Made by a program: the position numbers and the translations under genes. 64,000 nt of DNA, from positions 231,012,001 to 231,076,000 of the forward strand of contig OZ024740.1 of assembly GCA_964016885.1 (NCBI GenBank), given 5' to 3'. Below the pieces are notes generated by a model. It did no database searches. It was not told the origin of the DNA and saw only the letters and a program-made list of their open reading frames with translations. Source of the stretch: Eledone cirrhosa (lineage: Eukaryota). Each line of letters starts with the position of its first letter. The first letter of the stretch is position 1. This document shows, in pieces, positions 1 to 19,484 of the stretch.

Positions 1-514
1 ACCTAGCAGCATTGTGGAAATATCCACAGTAGTAGAGTGGGGTACATGGTGTTATGACCTGTCACATGATTTGGCATGGGGAGTGTGGACTGTGTAGTAG
101 AGCATGCAGGCTTAGTAATTTGGTTAGTGTGGTCAGAGCAAGAAGTATAAAAGATTATTGAAATTATATTATTTGGGAGAATAAGGTGCATAACTAGAAG
201 GAGACACTCATTACAGGGCTAGACAAGGGCACTAAATACTCTGGTGTCAACTGACCCTTACTGCAAGGAGCTTCAGCCTTCAATTATGGCATGTCCATAT
301 GCAAAATATCACATTTCTAATGAAATACACTGCCTATGTTTCAATTTATTTTGAAAAGAATTAAAAAAATTTGGAAGAATTTAATAAAACATCTACCATA
401 TTTATTAGTAAGCTAATGTTTGGAGTTTTACTTAATGAGAATAAAATTATGAGGGAAGGTTTTAATAAACACGCACCAGTCTGACCATGAAGATTATGAA
501 CAGGAGAGGTGACA

Positions 515-741
515 GTATGCACCCTTGGTAGAGTCCAACACCCACATTGAATAAATAATTGTTTCTACTTTTGGCAAAAGGCCAGCAATTATCCTAGTGT
601 AATACTGGTACTTTATTTTATCGACCCTGTAAGGATAAAATAAAGTACCAGCATTACACTGGGATAATTGCTGGCCTTGTGCCAAAAGTAGAAACAATTA
701 TTTATTCAATGTGGGTGTTGGTCTCTACCAAGGGTGCATAC
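515..741. repeat. Near-perfect inverted repeat (108-bp arms, 11-nt spacer) made of a SINE 3' end plus flanking DNA
   Basis: 515-622 (GTATGCACCCTTGG...CTTTATTTTATC) is the reverse complement of 634-741 (GATAAAATAAAG...CCAAGGGTGCATAC) with a few mismatches; spacer 623-633. Confidence 0.95.
555..636 (-). mobile_element. 5'-truncated tRNA-derived SINE (3' ~80 bp only)
   Basis: AATAATTGTTTCTAC...GGCCAGCAATT...GGTACTTTATTTTATCGACCC matches the 3' end of the other SINE copies; direct repeat CATTGAATAAATAA at 545-558 and 741-754 is a putative TSD. Confidence 0.85.
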
Positions 742-1057
742 ATTGAATAAATAACGAATGAATATTACATAATTTATGTAATAAATTTCGTATAAATTTC
801 GTAAACAAATTTAAAATTGACTTCTTTTCAAAGTTTCATTCACATTTCTACACTTCCGGTATATCGGCGCCACTTCAACTACCATATATATAGAAAGAGA
901 GAGTGTGTGATGAGAGAGATATAGAGATTATGATTTTCTACACGCTGACACGTATGAATGTGCACATATATACATCTATATGTATGAGTATATAACTATT
1001 ATGAGTATATAACTATAATCGCGCAAACACAAACTTATAAAAATACACCCTCACGGA

Positions 1058-1168
1058 TATTCACACAAATACACATACTTTCACACAAATATACATACAT
1101 TCACACATACTTTCACACAAACATACATACATCCACACATATACATTTACACGAACACACACATACAG
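1058..1168. repeat. CA-rich low-complexity repeat with ~20-bp TTCACACAAATACACATAC-like units
   Basis: Repeated TTCACACA/CATAC units visible directly. Confidence 0.75.
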
Positions 1169-1272
1169 TCATGATAGCAGCGTTCGGTGAATTGGAAATG
1201 GGAGGGTAAAACAAGTATAACGTTTTATTTATTCATTAACTCTTTATTTATTTATTAACTCTTTTTTTAAAA

Positions 1273-1311
1273 ACTCATTTAATATAATTGTTTCTACTCA
1301 TTTAATATAAT
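1273..1311 (-). mobile_element. Abortive SINE insertion: 7 bp of SINE 3' end between 16-bp direct repeats
   Basis: ACTCATTTAATATAAT (1273-1288) + TGTTTCT + ACTCATTTAATATAAT (1296-1311); the junction reads AATTGTTTCTAC, the SINE terminus. Confidence 0.65.
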
Positions 1312-1337
1312 GGTTACAGAACAAAAACACTAACAAA

Positions 1338-1522
1338 TATAATTGTTTCTACATTTTACACAAGGCCATCAATTATCCCAGTGTATTACTGGTACTTTAT
1401 GTTATCGACCCCGTAAGGATGAAAGGCAAAGTTAACCTCAACGGGATTTGAACTCAGACCGTAAAGGGACGTAACTATGCTGGAAAGCATGGCGTTCAGC
1501 CCTCTACCGATACTGCCAATTC
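1338..1522 (-). mobile_element. tRNA-derived SINE, near full length
   Basis: On - strand: A-box-like TGGCAGTATCGG, B-box GAGTTCAAATCC, central GCCTTTCATCCTTACGGGGTCGATAA, 3' GTAGAAACAATT; short TSD AATATAAT. Confidence 0.9.
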
Positions 1523-1690
1523 AATATAATATATACAAAGGAAAGAGAAAAGAAGAAAGAGAAAAAATACAAAAGCACGTAATACACACACCTTAGACCA
1601 CATAGAACAAAATGCAGACGAAAGAGTGGCAAAACGAGCCGCTACCAGAGCAAAAGATAGCAATATAGCAAGGAGCACTGGGAAACCTCT

Positions 1691-2135
1691 CTAATAATTT
1701 TTGAGGCAGGCCAGCACGCTCGCAACATTACCTTGGGTGATGGTGACGCTGAGGTGCTGGAACAACCAAGTGCCCTCACAAGCATCACCAGTTACCTCCG
1801 TTGGGTGAGCCACTAGTGAAGATAAGAATCTCGCTGTCAGTAGCCCGACTCCCCCAAACGTCTCGAACACCATAGGCTGGATAATGTAGTTAGCTAACAG
1901 AACACAGTATTTTAGGATTTTGTTCCGTTCAGCTGCGGATGCTGTAGCTCTCGTCCTTACTGCTGTATCTGGAATGTGGGAAGAAGCAAAAGAGTCACTA
2001 ACTGTGACGTCCCAGGTAAGGCACCTGCCTCTTGACCAGAAGCATAGAGTAAGACCGTCAAGTCTTTTCCCATCAATTCAGGACAACCCAGACGGTTCCA
2101 AAATTGAGGGGATGTTTGCCCGTGCCAGAGCTCTT
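1691..2135 (-). pseudogene. C-terminal restriction-like endonuclease region of a non-LTR retrotransposon, CRE-clade-like fragment
   Basis: - strand translation gives DGLTLCFWSRGRCLTWDVT...KY...IQPMVFETFGGVG...LFQHLSVTITQGNVASVL, matching the PDG..WD.T..P...ET.G..QRGN pattern of CRE-type elements. Confidence 0.7.
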
Positions 2136-2319
2136 GAGCGGTAATAGGACAGTGTGTGTATGTGCACGCGCGTGAGTTTGTTGGCGTTCTTAAATTAGAG
2201 ACACGTGTGTGTGTGTCACTGTTTTTAAGTTAGACATATATATGTGTGTATCCCTTCTCTTCCTTTTACACACACATACATTCACACAAACACACATACA
2301 CATTGCGTGATGGACGGGT

Positions 2320-2962
2320 GGACAGAAGTCCTTCAAATTTATATACATGTGAATGGAGTTCTACTGAAGCAGTTAGAGAAGTTCAAGTATCTTGGAGCCG
2401 TGTTCATGAGTGATGGAATGCAGGAGGCTGAATTAAGTGCAAGAATTGCAAAAGCTGATGCAGTAATGTGTCAGCCTCAGCAATCAGTTGAAGCGAGGTA
2501 GGTGTAAAAGCCAAACTTGATGTCTTCCTGGTATTCCTGCCAACTCTTACCGAGGATCATGAATCTTGAGCAATGACCAAAAGCGGCAGACATGGGATTC
2601 CTCTGAAGTGTCATTGGAGTAACGTTACTCGATAAAGTGCATAGCTCAGAGACCAGAGAGTCACTCCTGGTAGAGCCGCTACTTCTCTGAATTGAGAGAT
2701 CACAACTCTGATGTTATGGGAATGTGGTTAGAATGTCTCAGTAAAGAATCGCTGGACACATTTTATAGGCAAAACCAACCGACAAGAGACCCAGAGGTAG
2801 ACCTGAGCAAGATAGTTGGATAACAACCATGAGCTTGGCTGGTCACGCTTTGGGATCCAGCTGCATTAGAGGTGTTTGCTACTGAGAGACTCGCTGGAAG
2901 GGGTGTTTGAGAAGGACTCTGCCCCCACGACCCTCTCAGAAATAAGTGAGTGAAGAAGAAGA
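2320..2962 (+). pseudogene. RTE-clade LINE 3' fragment, degenerate
   Basis: ORF 2244-2501 contains LKQLEKFKYLGAVFMSDG...ARIAKA (post-RT F.YLG motif); downstream RPRGRP-like codons; ends in (GAA)n tail at ~2952-2962. Confidence 0.7.
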
Positions 2963-3098
2963 TATTGTCAATTTACTTTTCAATTTACATATATCTATAT
3001 GCATATATATATATATTTGCGTAATATACCAATATGCACACTACATATGCTAGCAGAAAATCACCCGAGGGCGGTTTTTCTGCTAGTTATTATAATGA

Positions 3099-5037
3099 GC
3101 CATTCCCGAAGGATCAATCCACGACAGCCTCCACCTTTTGATATATCATAGAAAGGATGGCTAAGGACCCTGGCACAGGTGGTGAACTGATCAACTTAGA
3201 TCAATCGAAAGCATTTGATAAGTCAAGCATTGGTACCTGGCGGTGGTCATCAAAGCAGGATTCTTTGCGCCCGTTTTCAAAGAGTGGATTGCTGCTATGC
3301 ACAGCAATAATGACTCTGGTTAGAGTGAATGGTCACCTCTCAGAACTGTTCAACATCATGCACTTGGTCCGCCAAGGCTGTCCACTCTCGTCCCTGTTGT
3401 ATGTATTGAGCTACTACTGCACAAATTAGAGACATTGAGGGGCATCCCGTGTGAACAAGGACATGGGAAATCTGTCTCAGCTTATGCTGATGACGTCACC
3501 GTTGATGTGTCGAGCACCAAATACATTGAGGTGATCGGCACTGCTCTGAGGGAATATGAAGCGTTGACAGGAGTGAAAATTAACCAGGAAAAGTCAGTGG
3601 GCTTGCAACTCGGCACATGGAGAGGCAGGTCTATGCTGTCCAACAGCATTGTCAGATGCTTGACAGATGGACTTGTTAAATTGCTTAGAGTCTGGCTCAG
3701 TCTGAATCTCCAGATGGCCAAAACTGGGATGAGGTGATGAGAAGGTGATGTGGCTAATCTCACCCAGAAATGGGCCAACAGAAAGCTGTCCCTGAAAGGT
3801 AGAGTAGAGTGGGCGAACGTGTACATGGCGTCCATCATCTACTACCACCTGACCATCATGCCTTGTCCTAGCGGTCCATCTGCTGTCAACACCTGCTGCA
3901 TGGAGGACTAGGAATGCCCTGGCTGATGATGCACAAACATGTGCTAAGGCTACATCTCCATCTTTTCCTTAACTGTGAACAGGTGTGGTCACTGTTCACC
4001 AGATGCATGTTCTTCCAGCTCATCTCCTTGAAGGAGCAGCAGTCCTGGGTCAAGTGGTGACCAAGGGGGGAGCGCTTGGGAACTGGAATGTCTTCAGGTG
4101 CTCGCAACCTTCCGCCAATTGGGTTGTATGATAGGTGGAAACTTCACCTTGGTGTTATATAGAGGGATAGTGGCAGATGAAGGTGACGGTGTTCTTGAGG
4201 AAATTCTAGGCATCGTCAAAAATCACTAGCCACACTCTTTTTGGGAAGACTTTTGGTCCTGGACCTATGGATGATTTCCAGAAATCCCTGGCCTGGCAGT
4301 GCAACTGAGGAGCTTTGCCAGTTTGAGATAAACTCTACAGGCATGGAAATGCCACTAGTTGGGCCTGTCAGAGATGCATGCAGGGCGACGAAACCATCCT
4401 GCATGCAATCATCCAGTACCCAAGCATTGTTGACTTTGGGTTTATGTCGAACACCTGCTGTCGTGTGTAGGACGAATCCGGCTGTCAGCCGAGTGATTGT
4501 GAAGACTGACGCACTGCCTTCCTTTAGTCAGAAAAGGCAGGCTGTTTTTATCTGTCTTGTGCCCATGGTGAAATATGTATGGTGGACGCACTTGAAAGGG
4601 TTGAAGACGAGCACTTTCCTCTTCGGCAAAGCGAAGATTAAATTCTTCAGGTTTCACTAGAAGAGGAATATCAGGGTGGAGAGGGAAGTGCTGACTTCAA
4701 AGCAATTTGTTGAGAGGTGAGCATGGCCTGAGTGAGTGGGCTCGCTCTGAGTGTGAGCCTGTAAATTAGAGGAAAACAACTGGGACAGGGTACTTACCCT
4801 AGATTTCAGGTTTTATGGGTTTTTTTTTCATGAGAGACCCTCAAACGTCTCCTCCCTATTGAGGAATACCCTTGTTTTAATTTTTATTGTTATCTTTCTT
4901 TTTTAACATTTAAAATTTGTTTATACGCAAAAGCCACACACCAACACACACACACTTTATGTTTTCGTTCTGTACTGTCATAATGTTTTTCTTGATGTAA
5001 ACCCTTTGTGGTTAATAAAGAAATCATTATTATTATT
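3099..5037 (+). mobile_element. 5'-truncated Tx1/L1-clade LINE, degenerate ORF2 (RT + C-terminus) and 3' UTR
   Basis: Motifs LDQSKAFD, VRQGCPLS, SAYADDVTV, GGLGMP in broken frames; clear homology to the element at 6.6-10.4 kb; ends AATAAAGAAATC(ATT)n. Confidence 0.85.
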
Positions 5038-5252
5038 GGCAGTACTGGTAGAACGTCAGACACCATGCTTTGTAGCACAGAGTTATGGCCCTTTCCGTTC
5101 TGAGTTCAAATCCCACCAAGGTTAGCTTTGCCTTTTATCCTTACAGTGTGATAAAATAAAGTACCAGTAATGCACTGTGGTCGATTTAATCGACTTTCCC
5201 CTCCCCCAAAATTGCTGTCCTTGCGCCTATAGTAGAAATCATTATTATTATT
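5036..5252 (+). mobile_element. tRNA-derived SINE, long subtype (extra TCGATTTAATCGACTTTCCCCTCCCCCAAA segment)
   Basis: TTGGCAGTACTGG A-box-like, GAGTTCAAATCC B-box, (ATT)n tail; AGAAATCATTATTATTATT at both 5019-5037 and 5234-5252. Confidence 0.9.
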
Positions 5253-5406
5253 AATTATGAACCTTCTAAACATAAGCCATGCATAGCATAAGCTCCAGTT
5301 TATTTTCAAGGTATTTTAACCTTTTTTACCTTCTCTAAGATTTTATTTAAGTTTTAAACTTAATAAAAGTTAAGGTAAATCTGCCTGCTTCCTGCAGGTA
5401 GACTAT

Positions 5407-5903
5407 TTTGTGCTATTTTGGGCTGTCTTACAGTAATAGATTTTGGTTGTCACCTATATATTTTATTTTAATGTATAAAACAATGACGGAGACATCACAA
5501 CACGTTTCTGAAACTAGATATATAAGAGAGAGTCAAAGTTTAACGAAGGGTAAAAATAAGAAATATTTATTGTCTGATGGATTAAAAGAAGTTGTTAGAT
5601 GAAATAACAAGGTATAATAATAATAATTGTTTCTACTATTGGCACAAGGCCAGAAATTACTCAGTACATTACTGGTACTTTATTTTATCGACCCCGTAAG
5701 GATGAAAGGCAAAGTTAACCTCGGCGGGATTTGAACTCAGAATGGCAAGGGCCGTAACTCTATGCGTCAAAGCATGGCGTCCGACCCTCTACCGATACTG
5801 CCAAACGTGTTGTGATGTCTCCGTCATTGTTTTATACATTAAAATAAAATATATAGGTGACAACCAAAATCTATTACTGTAAGACAGCCCAAAATAGCAC
5901 AAA
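5407..5903. repeat. 101-bp inverted repeat pair (5407-5507 / 5803-5903)
   Basis: TTTGTGCTATTTTGGG...CACAACACGTTT reads as the reverse complement of AAACGTGTTGTG...CCCAAAATAGCACAAA; no mismatch seen by eye. Confidence 0.95.
5620..5804 (-). mobile_element. tRNA-derived SINE, near full length, with templated 5' extension
   Basis: Same A/B boxes and core as other copies; TSD AAGGTATAATAATAA at 5609-5623 and 5902-5916. Confidence 0.92.
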
Positions 5904-5994
5904 GGTATAATAATAAACGATTTTAGTTTATATATGGTTTACTTCACGTGAATCAATTAAAAAGTACAATAAAACAGTTATCAAAAGTTGAGAA

Positions 5995-6180
5995 GGTTGA
6001 CGTCGTTGTCGTGCGTCTGAGACCATAGTGAGTTAGAGAGAGTAATGGTTTGTATACCTCTGAATGGTCTGTAGTAGTTGGTTGACGTTGTCGTCGTGAG
6101 TCTGAGATCACAGTGAGTGAGAGAGAGTAATGGTTTGTATACCTCTGAATGGTCTGTAGTAGTTGGTTGACGTTGTCGTT
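5995..6180. repeat. 85-bp tandem repeat, ~2.2 copies
   Basis: GGTTGACG at 5995, 6080, 6165 with near-identical intervening sequence. Confidence 0.9.
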
Positions 6181-6189
6181 AGTCTATTC

Positions 6190-6445
6190 TCTCTGTATTT
6201 CTGTAGACCACTGGGGTCTACTAGCGGTGAATCTTTACATAGCTTGTTGTAATTCGTAGAGCTCCGATGTCTCTGTGTTTCTGTAGACCTCAAGGGCCTG
6301 AAGGTAGCGGTGGATTTTTACATAGTTAGTTGCTAGCGTAATGCTCCCATCTTTCTGTCTTTCTGTAGACCACTGGGGTCTGTTGATAGTGGTGAATCTT
6401 TCACATAGCTTGTTCTGTAGTGGGGTGCTCCGATGTCTCTATGTA
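6190..6445. repeat. Diverged ~81-bp tandem repeat, ~3 copies
   Basis: TTCTGTAGACC at ~6199, 6279, 6361, each followed by GGTGAATCTTT/CATAGCTTG/GCTCCGATGTCTCT-like blocks. Confidence 0.8.
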
Positions 6446-6717
6446 AATGTGGGATGATAAAAGCTTTATATACCTGTCGCTTCCTGCCTCCCACCTTGAG
6501 GGGATAGCCAACGCATCAACCTGTTCACGCCAAAAGAGTGGTGATCTAGAATTTGACCTTTAGATTTCACCCAAGGTTCAAGGCGTGGACAGATATCGCT
6601 ACAAAAGTACAGTTTCAACGTCGGCTGTCTACAGGCAGTCAGCAAGGAAAATAAACAAAGGGAAAACTCTATTTATATGGTAAAAAAAGGACAAAAAACA
6701 ATTTTTTCAATGGCAAA

Positions 6718-6886
6718 AACAACAGCAGCGACAACGACAACAACAGCTCCAACAGCAGCAGCAGCAGTTGCAGCAGTAACAACAGCAACAGCAACAACAT
6801 CAACAATGAGAGGATGAGCGACAGCAACAAGCCAAATAACAACACCAACAACAGCAACAATAACAACGTCAACAACAACAACAGCA
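6718..6886. repeat. (CAA/CAG)n compound trinucleotide microsatellite
   Basis: Direct reading; explains the spurious poly-Leu ORF 6669-6929. Confidence 0.9.
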
Positions 6887-7106
6887 CTGTCCCTGCTGTG
6901 GATGCAAAAAAAAAAGAGGATATTTCCATATGGACTTATCAGACAACGAAGAACGTTTGGCCCAGGCTTGGAAATTGATCAAATGAGAGAAAACCCTGGC
7001 CAACCTAACCGTCCCAGCCGAAGTAATGGTGGCAACACAATGGAGAACTTTAATATGTAGATATTGCAGTGCAAACCCACAAAGTGGAATTAACCCCTCA
7101 ATCTAA

Positions 7107-7258
7107 AGTAGGGGCTGCACTCAAATGCATTGAGTATATAGCAAGGGGTTAACAGTTCAGCACCATCTTTAAAACAGTAGGGGCTGCACTGAAATGCATT
7201 GGAGAAGATATTGAGTATATAGCAAGGGGTTAACAGTTCAGCACCATCTTTAAAACAG
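7107..7258. repeat. Tandem duplication (~70 and ~83 bp copies) within the LINE ORF1 remnant
   Basis: AGTAGGGGCTGCACT...CACCATCTTTAAAACAG twice; first copy lacks ~12 bp. Confidence 0.9.
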
Positions 7259-10200
7259 AGGCCTTAGCCATTAAACCCTTTGTGGCCCCCTGCAGAATGG
7301 GCCGCATTGTAATGTACCCATCCCACATAGGCAGAAGAACTGTAAAGGTCTGCATTCTCAAGGTCCCACCAGAACTGGATTTATGGTGGCTCCTGGGATG
7401 CATGATTGAGGAGAGTACAAGGAGGTTTAGCCAACTGACATCCATGAGCACCCGAAGGTAAGTAACCCCACCTTTTTTTTCCTCTTGACCAGCCAGCTAG
7501 CCAACCAACATGGCAATCATGAGAATGGGTTGCATAAATGTTCGTGGAAGCATGGTCACTTGTTGAATGACCTCAGGTCACTAGATATGGATGTGACTGC
7601 TGTTGGCAAAACCAGGATTTCCAACATACATGAACTAGCCTCTATTTTTGATGACTACCAGATCTTTGCATCTCTTAGTCAGCCAGAAATGGGAGGTGGG
7701 GTCACAGTGCTGTTTAGGAAAGGCCTGGATCTTGAGGTAAGGACGAATTTCCTGGGCCTGGATGGTAAATTGGTGGTCCTGGACATGGGCAATAGCAAAG
7801 GTGGTGCCTTTAAACAGGTACCTGTCTATGCCATGACTGGAGCTGGCTGGCTGGATTTCTTTAGGTGTCTGGAAGCCTTTCAAGGAATGTTTCACCCTTT
7901 ACTATTAGCAGGGGACTGGAACGGCATCTTAGACACATACTGGGATTGTGTGGGAGTAGCTGATCAGCCAGTTCCAACTATCTGACAGGTACTGCTGGGC
8001 TGTTCGGGGGGGGGGGGGGGGTCGGAGACTGGTGGACTTCACTTCCTACCTCGACGGTCTACCATGTCTCTTGCCAGCTGATGTTGAGTGCTGCAAGAGG
8101 CCCATAACATCAGCCAAAATTTGGTATGTCCTGGTCGGCTGCATGAGGTGCAAGTTAGCTGGTTTGGATGATATGCCCTACCAGTTTTATGTAGATATGC
8201 CAGACTTGTTCTCTGATCTCCTCAAAGCCGTCTACTGTAACTGGCAGCAGAATGAGAGTATTCCCAGTTTGGTGAGCCAAGGGTAGTAACACTGATGAGG
8301 AAAGATTAGAACAAGAGGGACACTTTAGATAATTTCAGGCCCATAACTCTGCTAAACACAGAGTTCAAGATTTTGGCCAAGGTGTTAGTGAAGAGGTTGG
8401 CATTTGTTATCAAGGGTTTGGTAGTGGAGGCACAAACTTGCACAATCTCGATCTTGTTCATACACGACAACCTCCACCTTATGTGATACATCATAGAGGC
8501 AAGGAATAAGACTTGCTTCGGTGGGGCTATGACCAATTTAGATCAATTGAAAGCTTTCGATAGGGCTGACCATCGATATCTGGAGGCTGTCTTCAAGGCA
8601 GCTGGCTTCAGGCCCATCTTCAGAGGCTGGATTGCTGCAATGCACAATGGCATCTGCTCAGTGGTCAAAGTTAATAGCCATCTTTTGGAACCATTTCAGA
8701 TCACGTGATCGGTCCATCAAGGGTGCCCTCTCTCCTCCCTTCTGTAGGTATTGATTCTCGAGCCTTAACTGTGGGAACTGGTGCTGGTTCAGGGCATCCC
8801 ACTTGAACTGGGATGGGGAAGGGCTGTGTTGGCATATACGGATGACATCACCGTGATGGTGTTGAACACCTCGGAAATCGAGGTTGTCGGTACCCTCTTA
8901 AAGGAATATGAAAGGTTGATGAGAGCGAAACTAAACCTGGAAAAGTCAGTGGGCTTGCAGCTCAGCACCTGGAGAGGCAAATCCCTGCTGTTCAACAGTG
9001 TCATTGGATGCTGGACAGACGGACCGGTAAAGTTGCTCGAGGTCTGGTTTGGACCAGACCTCCAGGTGGATAAGAACTGGGATGAGGTAATAAGCAGGGT
9101 GGCCACTCTCACCCAGAAATGGATTGAGAGGAAGCTATCCCTGAAAGGTCAGGTGGAGGTGGTGAACACGTACATCACATCCATCATCTATTACTGCCTG
9201 ACTGTCATGTCTTGCCCCCATTTGCACCTCACCAAATTGGAACGCCTACTCTTTAACTTCTTGTAGAAGGGACAGATTCCATTGGAGAGGAAGTCCATTT
9301 GCTGCCAGCACCCTCTATGTGGAGGGCTGGGCATGCTGTGGCTGATGATGCACAAACATGCGCTGAGGCTACAGCATCATCAGATGTTCTTAAACAGCGA
9401 ACATGTCTGGTTGCCATTTGTGAGACGGGCCTTTCCACAGCTTGTCTCTTTGACTGACCTGCAGTCCTGGGTCAAGAAGAGATTGGGACTGGGCGTCTGG
9501 CATCTGGGATGTTACCAGGTGCTCACTGCCCTCTACCAGTTTGACAATTCAGTCACTAGAAATTTGGCGCTAGACTTCTATAGGGGATTAGTGGTGGGCA
9601 AGTGCAACACCACTCTCAGAGAGGCTCTGGTTGTCAACAAAATCACAACTGACCAGTCTGTTCAAGAGGACTTTCGAACCGGGAACTATGGATAACTTTA
9701 AAAAATCTCTCGCTTGGCAGTGCTACTGGGGAACACTGCTGGTTCCAGATAAACTCTACAGGCATGGAAGTGTTGTCAGACGGACCTGCTTGAGATGCGC
9801 GCAGAGTGACAAAATCATTCTGCATGCATTCGTCCAGTGTCCATGCATTACTAACTGATGGAGTTATGTCGAACAGCATGTAGAACAGATCTGTCTATCG
9901 GCTGAGTCCATAGTGAATATCAACTTGTTGCCTTCTATTGGCCAGGAAGAAGTTGTATGATTGACCAGGTTGAAAGGACTGAAGACAGACACTTTTCTCT
10001 TTGGCCAATCCCTCATCAACTTTTTCAAGTTTCACTCAGAAAGAAAGGTGAGGGTGGAAAGGGAAGTGCTGCTCCCCAGTATATTTGCTGAAAGGCAGGT
10101 GAATGTGGCCAGAATGGTTCTGAGCATGCACCTAGGCTGGTTAATTTGAAGAGGAGAGGGGTGCCCTCAAAGCATTGGGTGATTCAGCATTGGTGGGGTA

Positions 10201-10366
10201 CCTGAGTTGACCCTGGGTGGTTATCCCCCCTATTGGGGAATTCTCATTTTTGTTGTTATTTTGTTATTGTTATTTATAGTGTTTACAAGAATTTATGTTA
10301 AACCACTACTGTCCTTGTCTTTTGTATTGTCCCCAATATGTCGGCGCTCGTGGCCTATAAAGAAAT

Positions 10367-10522
10367 TATCGGTAGAGGGTTGGACGCCATGCTTTTTCAG
10401 CAAAGAGTTACGGCCCTTTATGGTCTGAGTTCAAATCCTTACGGGGTCGATAAAATAAAGTACCAGTAATACACTGGGTAATTGCTGGCCTTGTGCCAAA
10501 AGTAGAAACAATTATTATTATT
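10367..10522 (+). mobile_element. tRNA-derived SINE, slightly 5'-truncated, with ~27-bp internal deletion
   Basis: TATCGGTAGAGGG...GAGTTCAAATCC joined directly to TTACGGGGTCG (deletion between two ATCC); (ATT)n tail. Confidence 0.9.
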
Positions 10523-10541
10523 TTTAAGTAGTAACATTTTC

Positions 10542-11962
10542 AAATAATAATAATAATGAAATTATTGTGTAAAGTGCTCAGGTGCACTACAACTCGTCAA
10601 AGTTGCATGTATAGTACATAGAATAATATACAAATGTCAGGGAAGTGAATAGTGTATGAGTCATGATATACATGTGTGTATGTGTATGGAGGGGGAACAT
10701 TAGGTGTAGTGTTGGCGAATCTCGGGAAGCATGGATGTTTTAAAGGATGCAGTGTCTCGACAGCTAACAACTGATGCAGGTAGTTTGTTCCATGCTTCAG
10801 CAACTCTGAGCGTGAAAAAATGTTTCGAAAGTCATGGGAACTGTGCTGTTTTCTGAATTTGTGGGTATTCCCATGTGTGTTAGACACATGGAAATCAAAA
10901 AGGCACTCAGGGTTGTTGTTGGCAAGATGGTTAATAATTTTGTGGGTGTTTACCAAGTCAGTTGCCATGCGTCGGAGCTTCAATGTATCCATGCCCAGGG
11001 AAGCAAGGCGTTCAGAATATGGTAGATGCCTGATGGAGGGTATTCGCTTGGTTGAACGTCTCTGAACAGTTTCCAGGCGGTCAATGTTCTGAGCAAGATA
11101 GGAGCTCCAGACTGGTGATGCAAATCCCTCGGCCCTCTTGACAAGTTTAGAGACGTGCTTTGTCCAACGCAAATCGCTGCTGACCGTAATGCCCAGGTCA
11201 CGTTCACAAGAAGACTTCTTGATATTAGTGCTGTGGAGGGAGTATGTGGACGCTGGGTTTTTACTCCCAAAATGCATGGTGGTGCACTTGTCCACAGCTA
11301 GCTTGAGTTGCCAGTCTGAGATCCATTGTTGCATTGTGTCCAGGTCAGACTGCAAGCAAGATCTATAGTGTTCAGGATCTGTCCTTTTTATCTCAAGGTA
11401 CAGCTTGATGTAATCTGTGTACTTCAGTACTCTGGCATTCTTTAAGTTGGCATCTATATCATTAATATATGCCACAACCAAAAGGGGGCCAAGAACAGAT
11501 CCTGTGGTACACCAGATGACATCTCATATGGTGAGGATTGCTGTCCCAGAACCGTGACTACCTCTCTTCGACTGAGAATGAAGGACTTCAACCAGTTAAA
11601 AAGATCATCCTTCACACCTATTGCAGAGAGTTTTGCCATAAGCCTTTTGTGTGGCACAGAATTGAAAGCCTTCGCAAAGTCAAGGTAAACATAAACAACA
11701 TCCACCCATGAGCTGCCATCAGTGATCCGGGTGATGTCTTCAAGAAACTCGATAATTTGATCACAGCAGCTGGAGTTGGGGATAAATCCAAATTGCGAGG
11801 GCCGGATAAGATTGTGAGGGTTCCAGAAGTTCCAAAGTGTTTCTCTGACACAGGATTCCATCAGTTTGGCAATGCAACTAGTAAGACTGACTGGACGATA
11901 GTTTACAGGTGATGTGCGGTCACCCTTTTTGAACACAGGAATGACACTGGCAGTTTTCCATA
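10542..11962 (-). mobile_element. 5'-truncated CR1-group LINE (RT and 3' UTR), frameshifted
   Basis: ORFs 11454-11978 and 10597-11481: WKTASVIPVFKKGD, NYRPVSLTS, YLDFAKAFNSVPH, SGVPQ, YTDYIKL (degenerate ADD motif), ERDLGI, LETVQRR; (TTA)n tail near 10543-10557. Confidence 0.9.
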
Positions 11963-12449
11963 AGCAATTTTGTATCATAAAACTATGTTGGTTTCAGGAG
12001 GGTTGGTATCAAAAGGGTTAATGATGAATATTAAAAAAAAAAATGTATATACTGAAGAAAGTCAATTGGTTGACAATTACACTTGAGCTGAAATCAACTC
12101 AAGTTACCCCTTCATATATATTTGTATAGAAGAGTTTGTCTTTCACAATGTATGTTCTACTTCAGATAAGACATGGTCTGGAGTACTTACAAAATAAAAA
12201 ATATATTAAGTTAAAAAATATTACTCTTTAATCCTGTTGTAGTTAGTATTGGAGACTTAGGTGTTAAACATGTATAAAAGTACATACACATAAAAACAAA
12301 ATTAAGTAATGAAAGGAGAATGGAAGGGGTAAAGGAGGGCAGATCTGACTGTTTAGGAAAGTAAAGGATTATAAATGACATAAATGAGAGGAAAAGGAGG
12401 GAAAAAGCAAGGACAATTAAGCCATGGAAGAAAGAGAGGGTGATAGGCT

Positions 12450-12930
12450 CTGTGCCTATCGCAGGGTGGTGTTTTGGCTGCATCCTGTGGACAAAACTGC
12501 AAAGGATTTCCATGGACAATAGCCCCTCACTGGGATCCTTCCTCAGATGGGCTGCTGATTTTCTGATTTTCTGGAAGAGCTTGGCAGTACAAGGTCCGAG
12601 GCTGCCTGACCAGTGCAAAATGAAGTAGCTGGACAAACCCTGGTATTTACTTGTTGTCTTGTTCTCTTCATTGTGAGCTGCACTGTCGGGGTTTGTGGCC
12701 AAAATGACTAAGTTGGAGGTGGCGAACATGTCACAGCATATGGTGTTCCAGATGGGAGATTTACTTCCTTCAAATGGAGAAAGGGTATATCTGTCAGGGA
12801 ACTTGCCATCTCTGCGGTCAAGGCTTGCTGGCTCCAGTTGTCATGGGAAGCCAGATGCATCCAGGTTAATATGTTGTTGAAAGCAGCCAGTTGGGGGAAC
12901 CTGCCTGCACTCACGTGGCATGACAGTGAG
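12450..12930 (-). pseudogene. Second CRE-like restriction-like endonuclease fragment
   Basis: - strand LEPASLDRRDGKFPDRYTL.PFEGSK..IWNTICCDMFA...KYQGL...GSLGP, same architecture as 1691-2135 but a divergent sequence. Confidence 0.6.
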
Positions 12931-13345
12931 TGGAGGCCTAACTCATCATTGACAACACCACAATGAGTAGTGAGTACTCTTTAGTCTGGTGAGTCCCAAG
13001 ACAGCCTCACTATTACTGATGCCAGGATGAAATGCACCCAGTCCTCTCTGCGAAGTGGTTAGCATCCAGCTGTAGTTGTTCATACTGATTAACTGTATTG
13101 TGTCCTACTACTGGTATCTGTTCATCTTTAGTTGTTAATAAATTAGAAAAATAACATTGTTTTGTGCTATTATTGTTATTAGAACTGTAGATAATAATGT
13201 TAAAAACAGCATTTTAGAATTACCCTATTCTCATTAAATATTGTAATGTGCTGAGGTGAGGTAATTATTATTATATACGGATTGGAAATATGATTACTGA
13301 AATATATTTATTGAAACAATAAAAAATAAACTCTTTTGAAACAAT

Positions 13346-13566
13346 AAACTCTTTTGATATCAAATCACTTAAAACTGCCCCTGGTTCTACAATACAATGC
13401 TGTTTACTCTAAAAAATCTTCCATCATAACTTTATGTAAGAACTTTTAAGTTATGCTCCAAACACCCAGTTGAATAATGAGAAAGTTAGTTATTTTACTA
13501 AATCTCTCCAAATTCTTCATTATTTTCAAAATTATTTCCTTAGAAATATAGCAACAAAATGGTTAA
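13346..13566. mobile_element. Degenerate MITE-like dispersed repeat with TTAA-CC-type ends; related partial copies at ~325-440 (opposite strand) and ~11965-12021
   Basis: Ends AACTCTTTTGATATC...GCAACAAAATGGTTAA; GCTCCAAACA...TTACTAAAT...TTTTCAAAAT resembles the reverse complement of 340-427; GGTATCAAAAGGGTTAA at ~12005-12021. Confidence 0.4.
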
Positions 13567-13889
13567 AATTATCGAACCTTGTTTCTAAAATGTAAAATCA
13601 TGATGACAATATCAATTCTAGCTTATCCATTACTCTAAAGAAATAAAATAAAAAAATGTAATCATATCTTAAAACATAAAAGTCAATGTATATGTGTATG
13701 ATATTTCATGTTGTATATCACAGTTTTGCACCAAGTTAGCTGGGATTTTGCATAGGGGTTGGTCTTTTTAGAGAGGTTATATTTTTGTCATAATTAAAAA
13801 AAAATTAATTAATAATGAAGAATATACATCTACAAGAGAAGGAAATTATTTCTATAATGAAGAAAAAAAGGGAGAGTGAATGTGTAAAT

Positions 13890-14230
13890 ATTTAAGATAG
13901 TGGAAAGGCAGACATATAAATTCAACCAACCGTATTTAGTTGTTATTGACTGCATTTCTTATTCTGTCGTCTGCATTTGCTTGATACAAGAAATGGAGGA
14001 TATCTACGGACCATCAATGAGGAGTTTGCAGATCCAGTACTCAGAATACACATTCAGCTTTATACCTGTTATTATTGGAGCTGCAGGTTATATACCAACC
14101 TGCCTGGTCAAAAATATGGCTGAACTTGGATTCTGGAAGAAAGAATGCAGCTCCTTAATTCATAAACTACAAATGACCATGATGTCTCGAACCTTCAAAA
14201 TCTGTAAAACATTCTTATAATTTAAAAGAT
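13890..14230 (+). pseudogene. 3' fragment of an R4/Dong-like non-LTR element (restriction-like endonuclease C-terminus)
   Basis: ORF 13900-14220: LVVIDC...Y..FIPVIIGAAG.IP..L...KLQ...TFKICKTFL resembles the PVIIGALG C-terminal motif. Confidence 0.5.
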
Positions 14231-14324
14231 GAACAATTACACAAAGGACAACAGAAATCTTTTCTTTGCAACATTGTCACCGAGAAGGTGACAGGTAAAT
14301 AATACTCACAAAACATACATACAA

Positions 14325-14486
14325 TGGTGGGTGTTCCAGTTGATGGATCAATGGAACAGCCTGCTAATGAAATTAATTTATAAGTGACTGAGCATTCCAC
14401 AGGCACGTGTACCCTTACCATAATTCTCTGGAAGACCCAGTCTAACACAGTGTGTGATATAGCTGGTCTTTTGAATTAGGTACAGA
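14325..14486. repeat. Fragment of a dispersed repeat recalled from octopus genomes
   Basis: GTTCCAGTTGATGGATCAATGGAACAGCCTGCT...ACGTGTACCCTTA...AGGTAC; recognition from memory only, single copy here. Confidence 0.4.
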
Positions 14487-14552
14487 CCATCTCTTGGGCT
14501 TCCAAACTGTCCCCATCAATTCAATTTCATTCACAAGACATCGTTACTTTAC

Positions 14553-15008
14553 TACCAAATTTGACGTCTTATAAGACAAAAAGAAAAAAAAAAATCCCAG
14601 AAAATCACCTTGTGTCTTATAAAGTCAAGGGTCAGTTTGGGTTACTGGCTAGTGAAGTTCTGACGCTGTGGTGGCCTTTGAAATAAAACGAAAACATATC
14701 CGCAAATGTAAGTAAGATGGCTACAATCAAAGCTACAATTTTAATTAATTTTATGATGAATAAAATAAATTTATTTTCACTTACTTTTGTTTTTAAAATG
14801 TTCTAAATATTTCAACTAAAAAATACGATGTAGAGAATGAAATGAATTTATTTTCACACATCCTTGTTTTAAAAATGTACTAAAATATTACTAGAATTAT
14901 GATTTAAGATAATAATAAAAAAATACGATGTAAAACTTTATACCCTTCACCTGACATTTGTAATTTAAACTCATTTGCAGTGCATTTTATAAGCCGCCAA
15001 ATACAGTA
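14553..15008. mobile_element. Non-autonomous Tc1/mariner-pogo-like DNA transposon remnant
   Basis: Imperfect TIRs TACCAAATTTGACGTCTTATAAGA versus reverse complement of right end TACTGTATTTGGCGGCTTATAAAA (18/24), TA at both ends. Confidence 0.5.
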
Positions 15009-15339
15009 ATTCAACTCTATCAGACGATCAAAGGGAAACAATTACTAATTTTGAATTTCTAATACGTTGATTAAGAGTTGTTTCCCTTGTTAAAAATACT
15101 AATTAATGAAAAGTTAAAAAAATCCGGAAAATTTGAATCCCCGTCTAATACGAGACGGTAAGGGACTCTGGAGGTCATCTCAATTTTTTATTCTTTTGTT
15201 TACTTTCACAAACCAGACGTGCTGAAGAATGACATCTTAGTTATAAATTCTTCTTAGTTAATGTTTAACGGATTTTCGGTATACACAAAACACCTCTATT
15301 AATAAAATTACTAAGGGAAATGTTTTCCAAATTTTAACT

Positions 15340-15925
15340 CATCATCATCATTCTTTTACGTCCGCTTTTCCGTCCTTGCATGTGTTGGATAGGTCTCTCC
15401 CAACACGGCTTCCTTCCACCTACTGCAGTCCTTTGTCATTTCCTCTGTGAGGTTCAACGTGTTTATATCAGCTCTCACTACTTTTACCCAGATCTTTCTT
15501 GGTCTTCCTATATGGCAGATTCCTTCCACTAGGAACTACTGGTACATACAAGTGCAGTCTATTCTTCTGCACATTACATTTAATTCCTCTTATACACAAT
15601 TTTTCTGGCAGTCCATCTTTGCTTTACCTTCATATTAACATCATAAATCCACCAAAGCATACTCACTTCATTTCTTTCCAGGCTCCACATATCTTCTGCA
15701 TTTACTGTCCATGTGTCACTCCTATGAAACTTCCAATATTGCATGCAAGCATCATACAGCTATCCTTTTGTTGGTAGAAAGAAACCTTTTGCCAACACAG
15801 GCAATAGTGCTGAACTTTTTCCATCCTCATCTTATTCTAGCTACTATATATTCAAGACAATCATCTCCACTGCTAATCAGGTCACCTAGGTAGCAGAAGC
15901 TATCAGTTACTTCTATGAATGGTGA
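15340..15925 (-). pseudogene. RTE-clade LINE 3' fragment
   Basis: - strand IEVTDSFCYLGDLISSG..C...VARIR; (ATG)n tail seen as CATCATCATCAT at ~15340-15352. Confidence 0.7.
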
Positions 15926-16299
15926 AAGTTTATTACACAGAGCCCTTACTCATAATAGTATTGCTCCTATCATTTTTTTCTTGGTGGTGGTAGTGGTGGG
16001 GGATGGGCATGAGGCGTGCAGACGTTCATAATTTTCCAACAAATATTTATGCAAGCCAATAATTATTATGACATCTTTATTCATTATTGTATTGTACATA
16101 TTTTATTATGTTTTTTGTAATTAAAATAAATGAGCAAAATATACAATATTATTTTAATTTAAGAATTTTCCGACAATTTTTTTGGGGGGTGCAGCTGCAC
16201 CCCAAGCACTCTCAGAAACATGTCACTACCCTTACTACAAACTACCCCTGTACAGCATCTACATACAAAGTCTACCTTTTCTGTAAGTCTGATAAACAA

Positions 16300-17040
16300 A
16301 CAAGAAAAAGATGCAGCAACATCTCAGCTACTTCACAATGACAGCTTTTTTTATAACTTCCACAAAGAACTACCAAAAGAATCTACTGCCTCCTAATAAA
16401 TAAAAGTGTCAAGAAAAATCTACTACTATAACAAAGAAGATAACTCTAAAAACCATAACAAAATTAAGACTACCAAATGTTCACCACTGAATATTCTACT
16501 ACTAGCTTTCGATGGAGAGGAGATGGGCTCCACCAGGTTTTAAAGGCCTAGGAAATGCTGTATATCATTACAGTGCCCTCTATGACTCAATCAGGAGTTT
16601 CAGGTCCATACATACCTTTCAATAACAAACCTTTTGTATGGTTAAAAATATGAAATTCAATAAGAGGTTGAATCCCCTACAACAAACATTGTGTCAAAGT
16701 AAATCAAAACATCTTTGCTAATTTGGACAAAACAGAATTCCTTTGAAGTAATTACTCGTTCCTGTTATCTTCTCATCCATTCATCTAAAACTCCATTTTT
16801 AGCACATTAAAAATTACTAAAAAAAAACAAAAACGGCATGGTAGCAACCTTATAGAGTAATGAGAGCCACACACACCAATCCTCTAATACTGCATTCAAC
16901 ATCAGCCTACCTGCCAATACTTTTAAAAAAGCTCTATTATCAGCAACATAAAGAGAAAACACTAACGCCACACCCTCATACTACACATGGTCACTGAAAC
17001 ATTAATATCATCTGTAATGTAATCAGAAAAGAATTTCATT
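16300..17040 (+). pseudogene. Possible highly decayed Penelope-like element fragment
   Basis: Frameshifted remnants resembling WFNPPY (TTGAATCCCCTACAACAAA, ~16668) and FK..Y..H...SYYTWSLK (~16921-17000). Confidence 0.3.
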
Positions 17041-17059
17041 TACCTTAGCTTACCAAGCC

Positions 17060-17236
17060 AATAATGGTTTCTGATTTAGGTGCAAGGCCAACAATTTTTG
17101 GGAAGGGGAAAGTTGATTAAATCGACCTCAGTGTGTTACTGGTACTTTATTTTATCGGCCCCATAAGGATGAAAGTCATAGCTGACCTTGGCAGGATTTG
17201 AATTCAGAAAGTAAAAAGCCAGAACTAAATACTGTC
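17060..17236 (-). mobile_element. tRNA-derived SINE, older long subtype, 5'-truncated
   Basis: ATAATGGTTTCT...AAGGCCA...GGTACTTTATTTTATCG...GGATTTGAATTCAGAA. Confidence 0.85.
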
Positions 17237-17253
17237 ATTAAAACTACCCAATT

Positions 17254-17440
17254 AATAATTGTTTCTACGTTAGGCACAAGGCCAGCAATTACCCAGTGTA
17301 TTACTGGTACTTTATTTTATCGACCCCGTAAGGATGAAAGGCAAAGTCAACCTCGGCGGGATTTGAACTCAGATCGTAAAGGGACATAACTATGCTGGAA
17401 AGCATGGCGTCCGACCCTCTACCGATACTGCCAATCCACC
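17254..17440 (-). mobile_element. Full-length young tRNA-derived SINE with 13-bp TSD
   Basis: 5' end GGTGGATTGGCAGTATCGG, B-box GAGTTCAAATCC; TSD CCCAATTAATAAT at 17247-17259 and 17440-17452. Confidence 0.95.
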
Positions 17441-17453
17441 CCAATTAATAATG

Positions 17454-17694
17454 ATAATAATTGTTTCTACTTTTGGCACAAGGCCAAACATTTTGGGAGA
17501 AGGGGAAAGTCAATTAAACCAAACTCACTGCATTACTGTTACTTTATTTTATTGACCCCAGTGTATTACAGGTGCTTTATTTTATTGACCCCCATAAGGA
17601 TGAAAGGCAAAGCTAACCTCTGTGGGATTTGAACTCAGAACATAAAGGGATGCAAAGCATGTTGTCCGATGCTCTAATGATACTGCAAATCCAC
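17454..17694 (-). mobile_element. tRNA-derived SINE, long subtype with internal ~33-bp duplication
   Basis: Same termini; CTTTATTTTATTGACCCC occurs twice (~17542 and ~17575). Confidence 0.88.
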
Positions 17695-17699
17695 TTCCC

Positions 17700-18850
17700 T
17701 AGGGTCCTTCATAATAAAATTGGTCCATCTTTCAACCATCCAGCTTGGCACTTCACTCTGTGCAACAAATTTTATAGCTTACATTAAAATGCTTAATCCA
17801 GTAGCCATGGATATGGCTTGGTCCTGGAGTCTTCCAGTTTTGCAAACTTTTGGCTTCTATATTGACGTCATCACTAATGAATGGAACTGAGTCCTGTTTA
17901 GGTATTTCTTTAAGCTCTTCAGATATTAACAAACCAATATTTACATTGTGGTTTAAAGGTACTTCCCACAGGTAACTCCAGAAAGTTGTATCTTCATGAG
18001 TGATTAATCTTTAACACCATCACTCCTTAGACTTTATAAAAAACTATTTTTGACAGCTTTTCAATAGACTTTTTATTTTTGAAGTAAAGCATTCTTTGTG
18101 TGTATTGTTGGATTTTTTACACTTCACGCACTGTGTTGCACTATGTTGGCCTAGTTCTCTAAGCTGGTATTTTCTGTCCAACCTTCTTTATTTCATTCCC
18201 ACCTTTTTCTCCACAATCATTTCTGCTCAGATCTTTATGTAATGTTTTAATGCCACTTTCTATCCTTCACTTCCACGAGGGTAGTCTTTTCTTGTTGTTT
18301 GTAGCCTACTAGCCTTCTACAATGCTGCTTATTGTAGAAGATTTCTTGCTTCTGTTATTTTCTGAATTGCTATTATCTCAATGAAATCATTCACAGCATT
18401 GTTTTCTTTCTTTAATTTGTGTCCTGAGACAGTTTTGAGATTAGATACAATGGACATCACAGCACCTGACATGATCTTTTTTAGTCTATTCACTATTAAT
18501 AATTTGTCCTTATCTATATTATCTAAATCCGATTCACTACTCCCTCTTGAATATTCTTCTACTTTCCCAGTCTGAATTTTATCTTCCTCCATTGCCACTA
18601 CATGTCTCTCAATTACGTTACAACTTAGATCTACATTCCTTCAATTCTAAACATATGTCTCTTGACCTCCTCAATTTCCTGTTAAAAGCCATTATTTCCA
18701 CTTTGCTGAGTCTAGTCACTTAACCTTTGTTTGCCTATGTTGGACATACACATTTTGGGCCAGAACACATTCTGTCCATGAATCCAATTTGTTTTGACTT
18801 ACTTCAAATATGATACTCCATGATATTACATAACTGCCCTGTTGACCTTA
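17700..18850 (-). pseudogene. N-terminal/pre-RT fragment of an R4/Dong-like non-LTR element
   Basis: - strand ITEARNLL, PSWK*RIE..I..L.KDLS, FWSYLWE....HN, NWKTPGPSHIHGYWIKHF. Confidence 0.6.
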
Positions 18851-18910
18851 TTCCAGTCAATTTGTTCTACTTTCAGGTAAGGTGGAATAGTCTGTACATT
18901 TTCAGCAGTT

Positions 18911-19186
18911 GAAGGGTAATAACCAGCCCCACATCTCATGCTGTACAATGAGACACCTATCATGAGTTCAAAGGTAATGACCCCCCCCCCACCAGTACAA
19001 GGAAACACCTGTCAGGAGTTAAAAGGTAATGACCAGCCCCCCCTCCCTCATGTTGTACAATGACACACCTGTCAGGAGTAAAAAGGTAATGACCAGTCCC
19101 CACTCCCTCCTGTTGTACAATGAAACACCAGTACCCCCACTTCCTGTTGAGACACCTGTCAACAGGTTGTACAATGAGACACTTAT
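18911..19186. repeat. Degenerate minisatellite (~50-60 bp units)
   Basis: Recurrent TGTACAATGAGACACCTGTC and AAAGGTAATGACCAG blocks; generates the repetitive ORFs 18960-19289 etc. Confidence 0.8.
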
Positions 19187-19259
19187 CAGCATCAACATCT
19201 TTACTATGGCTACCAGTTTCATTTCCATTGTTCTGGAACAAATCCTTATTTGCTAAGAT

Positions 19260-19426
19260 TAGAGGGTTGGACGCCATCCTTTCTAGCATAGTTACGTCCC
19301 TTTACAGTCTGAGTTCAAATCCCGCTGAGGTTAACTTTGCCTTTCATCCTTACGGGGTCGATAAAATAAAGTACCAGTAATGTACTGGATAATTGCTGGC
19401 CTTGTGCCTAAAGTAGAAACAATTAT
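19260..19426 (+). mobile_element. tRNA-derived SINE, 5'-truncated by ~15 nt, 10-bp TSD
   Basis: TAGAGGGTTGGACGCC...GAGTTCAAATCC...GTAGAAACAATTATT; TSD TTATTTGCTA at 19246-19255 and 19423-19432. Confidence 0.92.
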
Positions 19427-19484
19427 TTGCTACTACTATCAATATCATTGCTGCTATGAAAGGGGAGATTAATAATATGGTTGT

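What the first reader, a model, noticed from the sequence alone, without database searches (positions are those of the whole stretch)
515..754. Fold-back SINE insertion: 108-bp palindrome that copies both the new SINE end and ~40 bp of flanking DNA
Seen: a truncated SINE (555-636) is followed by an inverted copy of its own 3' end, of the target site, and of ~30 bp of DNA lying outside the left TSD; the sequence then resumes with CATTGAATAAATAA (741-754), a repeat of 545-558. Because the inverted arm includes genomic flank, L1-type twin priming on the RNA cannot explain it. Inference: the nascent cDNA snapped back on itself and was extended through the target DNA before joining the second end, leaving a cruciform/dsRNA-capable hairpin.
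Basis: partly seen in the sequence, partly recalled or inferred. Interest (0 to 1): 0.72.

Follow-up and report, generated by a model that had tools for sequence, protein, structure and literature searches.

The report
SINE snap-back palindrome copying host flank
A short jumping gene (SINE) sits here inside a 227-base mirror-image duplication that also copies its landing site and neighbouring DNA, likely made when its fresh DNA copy folded back during insertion; several other copies in this genome have the same build, a rare variant of a known kind of insertion accident.

Summary
The palindrome is real in the assembly: arms 515-622 and 634-741, 4 mismatches, 11-base loop, then a 15-base duplication (544-558/740-754). 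The outer-arm junction is unique in the 3-Gb genome, so this is not a MITE. The same turning point (ATC-loop-GAT in the SINE) recurs: 12 of 78 matches have arms of 12-311 bases and 6 run past the SINE's 3' end, against 120,572 ordinary copies. In 4 of 9 long fold-backs a 12-18-base duplication follows the arm directly. Across 12 loci the arms share 1 rare base against 41 differences, so folding happened when the copies were new. This supports snap-back during insertion. Corrections: the 'flank' is a 72-base LINE fragment, and the right side is a Helitron-like repeat whose site here is a SINE hot spot (1,820 filled, 3,115 empty). The two are joined through 9 shared bases, so the target was itself rearranged. 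Snap-backs are known (R2/PRINT; human L1), but reported L1 duplications are on the upstream end; here synthesis likely ran through tail and target into the downstream flank. The scan noted this build before on other DNA of this genome. Not verified in reads.

The parts
481..552 (-). 72-bp fragment of a LINE reverse-transcriptase region ('X'), cut at both ends; its last 38 bases (515-552) lie in the left arm
   Evidence: 97% to L022 over 72 nt; translates to FNVGVGLYQGCILSPLLFIIFMV; the relative's frame hits Pfam RVT_1 at E 4.4e-11, above cut-off; relatives continue differently after 552; that continuation was not found in 9 kb upstream or window 1-19,500
515..622 (+). left (original) arm: 29 nt flank + duplicated target site + SINE 3' part
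   Evidence: continuous with the loop as in ordinary SINE copies and with the flank left of 515
544..558 (+). left copy of the target-site duplication; 544-552 (9 nt) is shared by the LINE fragment and the repeat R
   Evidence: D4; LINE relatives carry these 9 bases; R copies carry the whole 15-mer
559..636 (-). 5'-truncated SINE; 3' end at 559 with ATAA at 555-558 shared with the target; ends at GAT 634-636
   Evidence: 90% to a full copy, L066; 120,572 exact matches of the ordinary junction pattern
623..633 (+). loop; native SINE sequence between ATC (620-622) and GAT (634-636), the likely 3-bp snap-back primer
   Evidence: same turning point at 8 exact places
634..741 (+). right arm: inverted copy of the SINE end, the target site and 29 nt of flank (likely DNA-templated synthesis, 637-741)
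   Evidence: shares the rare base at 602/654 with the left arm, seen in 0 of 73 ordinary copies; junction 23-mer occurs only in the two arms genome-wide
740..754 (+). right copy of the target-site duplication; overlaps the arm end by 2 nt (3 nt, TAC 739-741, if read against R's native sequence)
739..1292 (+). Helitron-like repeat R without its first ~90 bp; the site at 754/755 is a SINE insertion hot spot
   Evidence: 88% to L009; 5' part not found in 9 kb upstream or window 1-19,500; 1,820 filled and 3,115 empty exact matches

Best explanation
This is one SINE insertion with a 108-bp mirror copy of its own end, target site and flank, likely made during target-primed reverse transcription when the new cDNA folded back on itself and was extended on its own strand before being joined to the far side. 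Steps: (1) inferred: a LINE endonuclease nicked the hot spot ...ATAA|YG at 558, with a second nick about 15 nt away; (2) inferred: cDNA grew from 559 to GAT at 636 and left the RNA; (3) inferred from sequence: its 3' GAT paired with ATC at 620-622; (4) shown as product, enzyme unknown: 105 nt were copied back through SINE, target site and 29 nt of flank, which would need the opposite strand resected or displaced beyond the second nick; (5) inferred: the new end was released and joined through 2-3 shared bases to the other end's overhang, leaving the duplication. The LINE-fragment/repeat junction inside the duplicated site likely came first, as a microhomology deletion after an earlier cut at the same hot spot; a 3'-side deletion in the same event is also possible.
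For: Arms, loop and duplication. Outer junction unique: 2 matches genome-wide, both in this palindrome. Both arms share a base absent from 73 of 73 ordinary copies, so one was copied from the other. The turning point recurs: 8 exact matches; of 78 relaxed matches, all examined, 12 have arms of 12-311 nt and 6 pass the SINE 3' end. Nine long fold-backs gave rows: a 12-18-nt duplication (one mismatch allowed) sits at the arm end in 4 (window, L113, L041, L018), a 6-nt one in L104, none in 4; none in the 8 opposite orientations printed. Where the loop shows the direction (window, L113, L041, L104) the duplication is on the predicted side. Timing: 12 loci, about 62 aligned bases each, 1 shared rare base against 41 arm differences; P about 9e-7 if folding fell at a random later time; for the 7 loci with copied flank, 1 against 19 (P about 0.003 by hand). 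Snap-back junctions are an observed class in R2 insertions (PMC11371274, passages).
Against: The only shared rare base of the 12 loci is at this locus, so a short lag between insertion and folding is not excluded here. No duplication was found at L116, L119, L032 or L093. In L110 the loop faces the other way, which needs loop inversion or another route. The primer is only 3 bp, and the predicted DNA fold of 601-636 is -0.4 kcal/mol with a different hairpin. None of 30 sampled hot-spot-motif loci pairs a foreign left flank with R on the right, so this locus needs a second rearrangement. No empty allele was seen.
Confidence: 0.76

Rival explanations
1. An ordinary SINE inserted in the hot spot first. 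A later replication or repair template switch (possibly the same break that removed R's 5' part and brought in the LINE fragment) replaced the SINE's 5' half with the inverted copy.
For: One rare base is shared by both arms. The locus needed a rearrangement anyway: R's first ~90 bp are missing and a 9-nt microhomology joins it to the LINE fragment.
Against: The switch would have to return exactly at the old duplication, as also at L113, L041 and L018. Shared-to-different bases are 1 to 41 across 12 loci.
Confidence: 0.13
2. One composite retrotransposition into the LINE fragment: a read-through RNA from a SINE sitting in an R copy primed on the 9 shared bases, snapped back, then returned to the RNA and copied R as 5' cargo.
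For: It explains the 9-nt match and why R lacks exactly the part beyond the SINE's 3' end. R copies with this variant of the site, some SINE-filled, exist (34 matches, 20 viewed).
Against: The LINE's continuation is absent from 9 kb upstream and 19.5 kb of the window; no duplication brackets such a composite; it needs two more template jumps.
Confidence: 0.05
3. Assembly or library fold-back artefact.
For: No read-level confirmation was obtained; perfect palindromes such as L116 (311 nt, 0 mismatches) can be chimeras (general knowledge).
Against: The arms differ at 4 substitutions, two derived on each arm. The arm ends in a 15-nt duplication at the family's usual target phase. Sister loci repeat the build.
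Confidence: 0.04
4. A SINE-derived MITE, or two independent SINE RNAs primed head-to-head from both nicks.
For: SINE-only palindromes in (TA)n (L104, L033, L034) could be double insertions, and some arm differences fall on subfamily-variable sites.
Against: Outer arms differ at every locus viewed and this one is unique. Neither route copies 29 nt of flank beyond the duplication.
Confidence: 0.02

Closest known systems
Snap-back 5' junctions of R2-protein insertions (PRINT; PMC11371274, passages)
   Same: The cDNA 3' end primes further synthesis on the cDNA before the 5' junction forms, giving antisense sequence next to the target.
   Different: Engineered R2 in human cells at rDNA; the passages mention priming on cDNA or, less often, nearby rDNA, not read-through from cDNA across the tail into the downstream flank. 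Here it is a SINE copy in an assembled genome with 12-18-nt duplications.
Fold-back inversion / inverted duplication at human L1 insertions (PMC10191854, passages; 10.1101/2024.12.14.628481, 2026 version, passages)
   Same: A short inverted duplication of target DNA (52-220 bp; 3 cases, 0.3%), primed by about 2-bp microhomology, with the duplication preserved, attributed to resection and self-annealing.
   Different: The reported duplications are on the upstream (reciprocal) end and hold genomic DNA only; one inversion, not a duplication, is reported on the cDNA end. Here the cDNA end folds and the arm holds SINE + target + downstream flank.
Templated insertions in L1 events (10.1101/2024.08.27.596794, passages)
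   Same: Under 250 bp of DNA from within 15 bp of the site is copied into the insertion after the cDNA leaves the RNA (22 cases).
   Different: The passage does not give orientation or side; the supplementary figure that may show the same geometry was not seen.
Twin priming (5' inversion; described in PMC12016303, passages)
   Same: Inverted element sequence at the 5' end, bracketed by a target-site duplication.
   Different: It inverts a different, more 5' part of the RNA and cannot copy flank; here the inverted part duplicates the 3' end and 44 nt beyond it.

Membership tests
Snap-back (cDNA self-primed) retrotransposon insertion | Inverted copy begins at the cDNA 3' end by short self-complementarity | tested here: met
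   ATC 620-622 / GAT 634-636; loop continuous with the left arm
Snap-back (cDNA self-primed) retrotransposon insertion | Whole structure lies inside one target-site duplication | tested here: met
   544-558 / 740-754; also L113, L041, L018; not found in 4 of 9 long loci
Snap-back (cDNA self-primed) retrotransposon insertion | Duplication as old as the insertion | tested here: inconclusive
   Met for the class (1 shared against 41 different); this locus holds the one shared base
Snap-back (cDNA self-primed) retrotransposon insertion | Empty allele with one copy of the target | tested here: inconclusive
   No contig laid spans the site
Twin-priming 5' inversion | Inverted part comes from RNA 5' of the break and holds no flank | tested here: not met
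   The inverted part repeats the 3' end and 44 nt beyond it
MITE | Many copies with the same terminal inverted repeats | tested here: not met
   Outer junction only in this palindrome; other loci have their own outer arms
SINE (core element) | Short, high copy, 5'-truncated copies, simple tail, variable target duplications | tested here: met
   About 190 nt; 120,572 exact matches; varied 5' ends and duplications of 0-20 nt
SINE (core element) | tRNA-derived head with Pol III boxes | tested here: inconclusive
   ARAGORN 0 genes in 4 loci; no tRNA match in Rfam at E up to 10; an A/B-box-like look is by eye only
Non-autonomous Helitron (repeat R) | 5' TC start after a host A | tested here: met
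   29 of 38 copies with the head motif have ATC there, of 59 copies examined
Non-autonomous Helitron (repeat R) | 3' hairpin and CTRR end | tested here: inconclusive
   One candidate end motif searched: 0 of 59 within up to 1.5 kb; R's 3' end is not mapped, so R is only 'Helitron-like'
Tx1-clade LINE as mobiliser | SINE 3' tail homologous to the LINE 3' end; shared target | tested here: inconclusive
   Two LINE remnants end near 5030 and 10365 in a short hairpin plus TAAAG..AGAAA/ATT like the SINE tail, each followed by a SINE (by eye); Pfam gives only a weak RVT_1 hit; the Tx1 label is from recall and note e1-8836506

The most novel reading that the evidence does not exclude
This SINE's partner enzyme routinely frees the cDNA 3' end, which folds at built-in micro-hairpins and drives synthesis back across the nick into up to ~250 bp of host DNA. 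The genome would then hold a countable fossil series of resection and second-strand intermediates on the cDNA end, and a steady source of locus-specific long hairpins that could become RNA-editing substrates in a lineage rich in A-to-I editing.
Probability: 0.25. Interest if true: 0.68.

Novelty: new variant of a known kind. Interest (0 to 1): 0.42.

Why it matters
How non-LTR retrotransposons finish the 5' junction and second strand is still open. These loci preserve the order of events (cDNA release, self-priming, synthesis 13-248 nt past the element's end, joining to the staggered far end) on the cDNA side, where the human L1 passages read here report mostly upstream-end events. A fixed turning point in a family of over 120,000 copies makes rates and tract lengths measurable. 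The events are rare (6 long ones at this turning point) and no function is shown, so the locus itself is a neutral fossil. The hot spot (37% of exact R sites filled) is a ready substrate for testing the endonuclease's target rule.

Tried and rejected
Reads: no RNA holder listed. Contigs of 5 runs were laid. In X1, 100-342 is matched exactly and a 49-nt contig matches 524-572 exactly, but it has only 20 letters on the SINE side, too few to count as bridging. 726-738 had no cover at 98% likeness in 4 of 4 runs, and 466-478 none in 3 of 4; no listed piece spans the fold or the right junction. Holes in filtered contigs prove nothing, and the best run may be the assembly's own source, so this is used neither for nor against. 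Micro snap-backs: 20 copies carry two substitutions that lengthen the hairpin to 8 bp, against about 9 expected from the single changes (674 x 1,649 / 120,572); a twofold excess fits age spread, so it was not used. The class labels printed and the short-arm lengths are script faults; arm lengths were read's numbers. One search's copy search found only 1 copy (wrong spacer) and was redone. L072 and L160 gave no row. Dong/R4 as partner (TAA targeting, PMC3812793 passage): not tested beyond the ATAA preference. Rfam: nothing at gathering score in 1-20,000. A look-up by sequence in earlier findings was blank. No ADAR-type bias in the 4 arm differences.

Full report
Observation. The window lies at G000:C1:231,012,001 in a 3.0-Gb animal assembly; that it is an octopus is my inference from recall of the repeat and from note e1-8836506, not a tool result. 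The inverted repeat is as described: arms 515-622 and 634-741, 96% complementary, 11-nt loop, fold z-score -27.4. A 15-nt direct repeat lies at 544-558 and 740-754. The arms differ at four places. Against 73 ordinary SINE copies and 7 LINE relatives, two of the differences are derived on the left (577, 595) and two on the right (652, 722). Both arms carry A at 602/654 where 73 of 73 ordinary copies have T. So one arm was copied from the other and both have since drifted, about 1.9% each. With the octopus calibration quoted in PMC13282606 (0.09 = 25 million years; passage) that is roughly 5 million years, a loose figure.

What the pieces are. The core (559-636, minus strand) is the 3' part of a ~190-nt SINE whose ordinary junction pattern occurs 120,572 times exactly. 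The left 'flank' (481-552) is a 72-bp piece of a LINE reverse-transcriptase region. Its relatives share the bases up to 552 and then read on differently; that continuation is not within 9 kb upstream or window 1-19,500. The right side (739 to about 1292) is a common repeat R that elsewhere starts with A|TC like a Helitron (29 of 38 copies with a head, of 59 examined); its 3' end was not mapped. Here R lacks its first ~90 bp. The duplicated 15-mer is native R sequence in a minor variant (34 exact matches, 20 viewed), and its first 9 bases are also native to the LINE fragment. The junction of the two repeats therefore lies inside the duplicated site.

The hot spot. R's site is filled by this SINE in 1,820 exact matches and empty in 3,115 (a few 'empty' matches are right-hand duplications). 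The SINE-end/target 21-mer occurs 2,783 times. Of the first 30, all on contig C1, 24 have R on the left, 4 follow another SINE in tandem and 2 are unrelated sites with the same motif; 5' ends and duplication lengths (0-20 nt) vary widely, which points to independent insertions. Away from the hot spot, 49 insertions show ATAA at the last four target bases in 92-100% per position. None of the 30 pairs a foreign left flank with R on the right, so this locus is atypical. The simplest reading is that an earlier cut at the hot spot was repaired by deletion through the 9 shared bases, leaving the target intact for a second hit. Deletions on the 3' side of L1 insertions are also reported (10.1101/2024.12.14.628481, passage), so a single event is possible.

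Recurrence. The 23-mer joining LINE fragment and target occurs only in the two arms, which removes the MITE reading. The turning point itself recurs: 8 exact matches of the 33-nt fold junction and 78 of a relaxed pattern. All 78 were examined: 12 have arms of 12 nt or more (two of them tandem at one locus) and 6 run past the SINE's 3' end; the rest have arms under 12 nt or a broken arm, and most are ordinary SINEs with substitutions. Further fold-backs with other loops came (L018, L032, L033, L034, L072) and L093. Arms pass the SINE end by 13-248 nt, each with its own flank. Of 24 loci given to, 22 gave rows. Among the 9 long ones, a duplication of 12-18 nt stands right at the arm end in 4, a 6-nt one in L104 and none in 4; none appears in the 8 opposite orientations printed. 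Among 13 short-arm loci picked by eye, 7 have a duplication of 12 nt or more, but such short arms can be chance in A/T-rich sites.

Timing. If folding were a later accident, the arms would share mutations gathered before it. In 12 loci there is 1 shared rare base and 41 differences (binomial 9e-7 for an expected third). Some of the 12 may be two separate insertions; the 7 with copied flank give 1 and 19. The one shared base is at this locus, so the argument is strong for the class and weaker here.

Mechanism. Most likely (0.76) the cDNA stopped at GAT 636, paired with ATC 620-622, and was extended 105 nt along its own strand through target site and flank. The opposite strand beyond the second nick must have been resected or displaced. 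The end was then joined by 2-3 shared bases to the far overhang. The product is shown; nick positions, order and enzyme are inferred. The 3-bp primer is weak, and L110 has its loop the other way round. Rivals: later template switch (0.13), composite read-through insertion (0.05), artefact (0.04), MITE or double insertion (0.02). Read-level confirmation is still open.

Comparison with what is known. Snap-back junctions are a named class in R2-protein insertions (PMC11371274, passages). Human L1 insertions show short fold-back duplications upstream of the target (PMC10191854, passages), inverted duplications on the reciprocal end primed by 2-bp homology with the duplication kept (10.1101/2024.12.14.628481, passages; earlier version PMC11702581, passages), and templated insertions near the site (10.1101/2024.08.27.596794, passages). 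I saw passages only, no figures; I did not open supplements, and those of the preprints may show this geometry. Eight searches showed no listing of SINE snap-backs that read through into the downstream flank, or of this in octopus; the passages of the O. vulgaris repeat paper have no 'palindrom' hit. Natural R2 snap-backs in Drosophila are recalled, not seen. It works like an R2/L1 snap-back and meets the structural features tested; the cDNA-side read-through is the variant.

Earlier notes of the scan describe the same build at another place in this genome (e1-10308502), a related composite (e1-10313550) and a SINE hot spot in a Helitron family (e1-9559433). They are not independent support; my counts come from my own loci.

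Verdict. Real in the assembly, well explained, rare and probably neutral: a new variant of a known insertion outcome. Interest 0.42.

Noticed in passing
window 19485-64000: A 41-bp satellite, about 1,085 copies, 91% matches, fills the rest of the window; a 68-bp variant block recurs at 26164, 27462, 44462 and 45760 (spacings 1,298 and 18,298), suggesting higher-order repeats.
   Followed up: no
window 1274-1310: A 9-bp stub of the SINE's 3' end sits between two perfect 14-bp target duplications inside R: an almost minimal insertion.
   Followed up: partly
window 1343-1523; L009, L017: A second site near R's far end also holds a SINE at the same base in several R copies, likely a second hot spot.
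   Followed up: no
genome-wide; L063-L092: One site in repeat R is SINE-filled in 1,820 of 4,935 exact matches (37%), often in tandem runs about 200 bp apart.
   Followed up: partly
window 4995-5035 and 10340-10367: Two LINE remnants end in a short hairpin and tail resembling the SINE's 3' end, each followed directly by a SINE: candidate partner LINE sharing the target.
   Followed up: partly
L116:1195-1827 (G000:C3 near 128.96 Mb): A perfect 311-bp-arm SINE fold-back with about 215 bp of unique flank and no duplication found: very young or an assembly chimera; best candidate for an empty allele.
   Followed up: partly
L072 (G000:C1 near 23.13 Mb) and L093: Fold-backs that turn further 5' in the SINE, around GCAAAGT; L072 stops at the SINE end and is followed by the hot-spot duplication.
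   Followed up: partly
L037:1435-1860: A 110-bp unit (short snap-back SINE plus duplication) occurs twice in tandem before a longer SINE.
   Followed up: no
L033:508-843; L030:1749-1868: Other long palindromes (336 and 120 bp) not centred on this SINE's turning point lie near fold-back loci.
   Followed up: no
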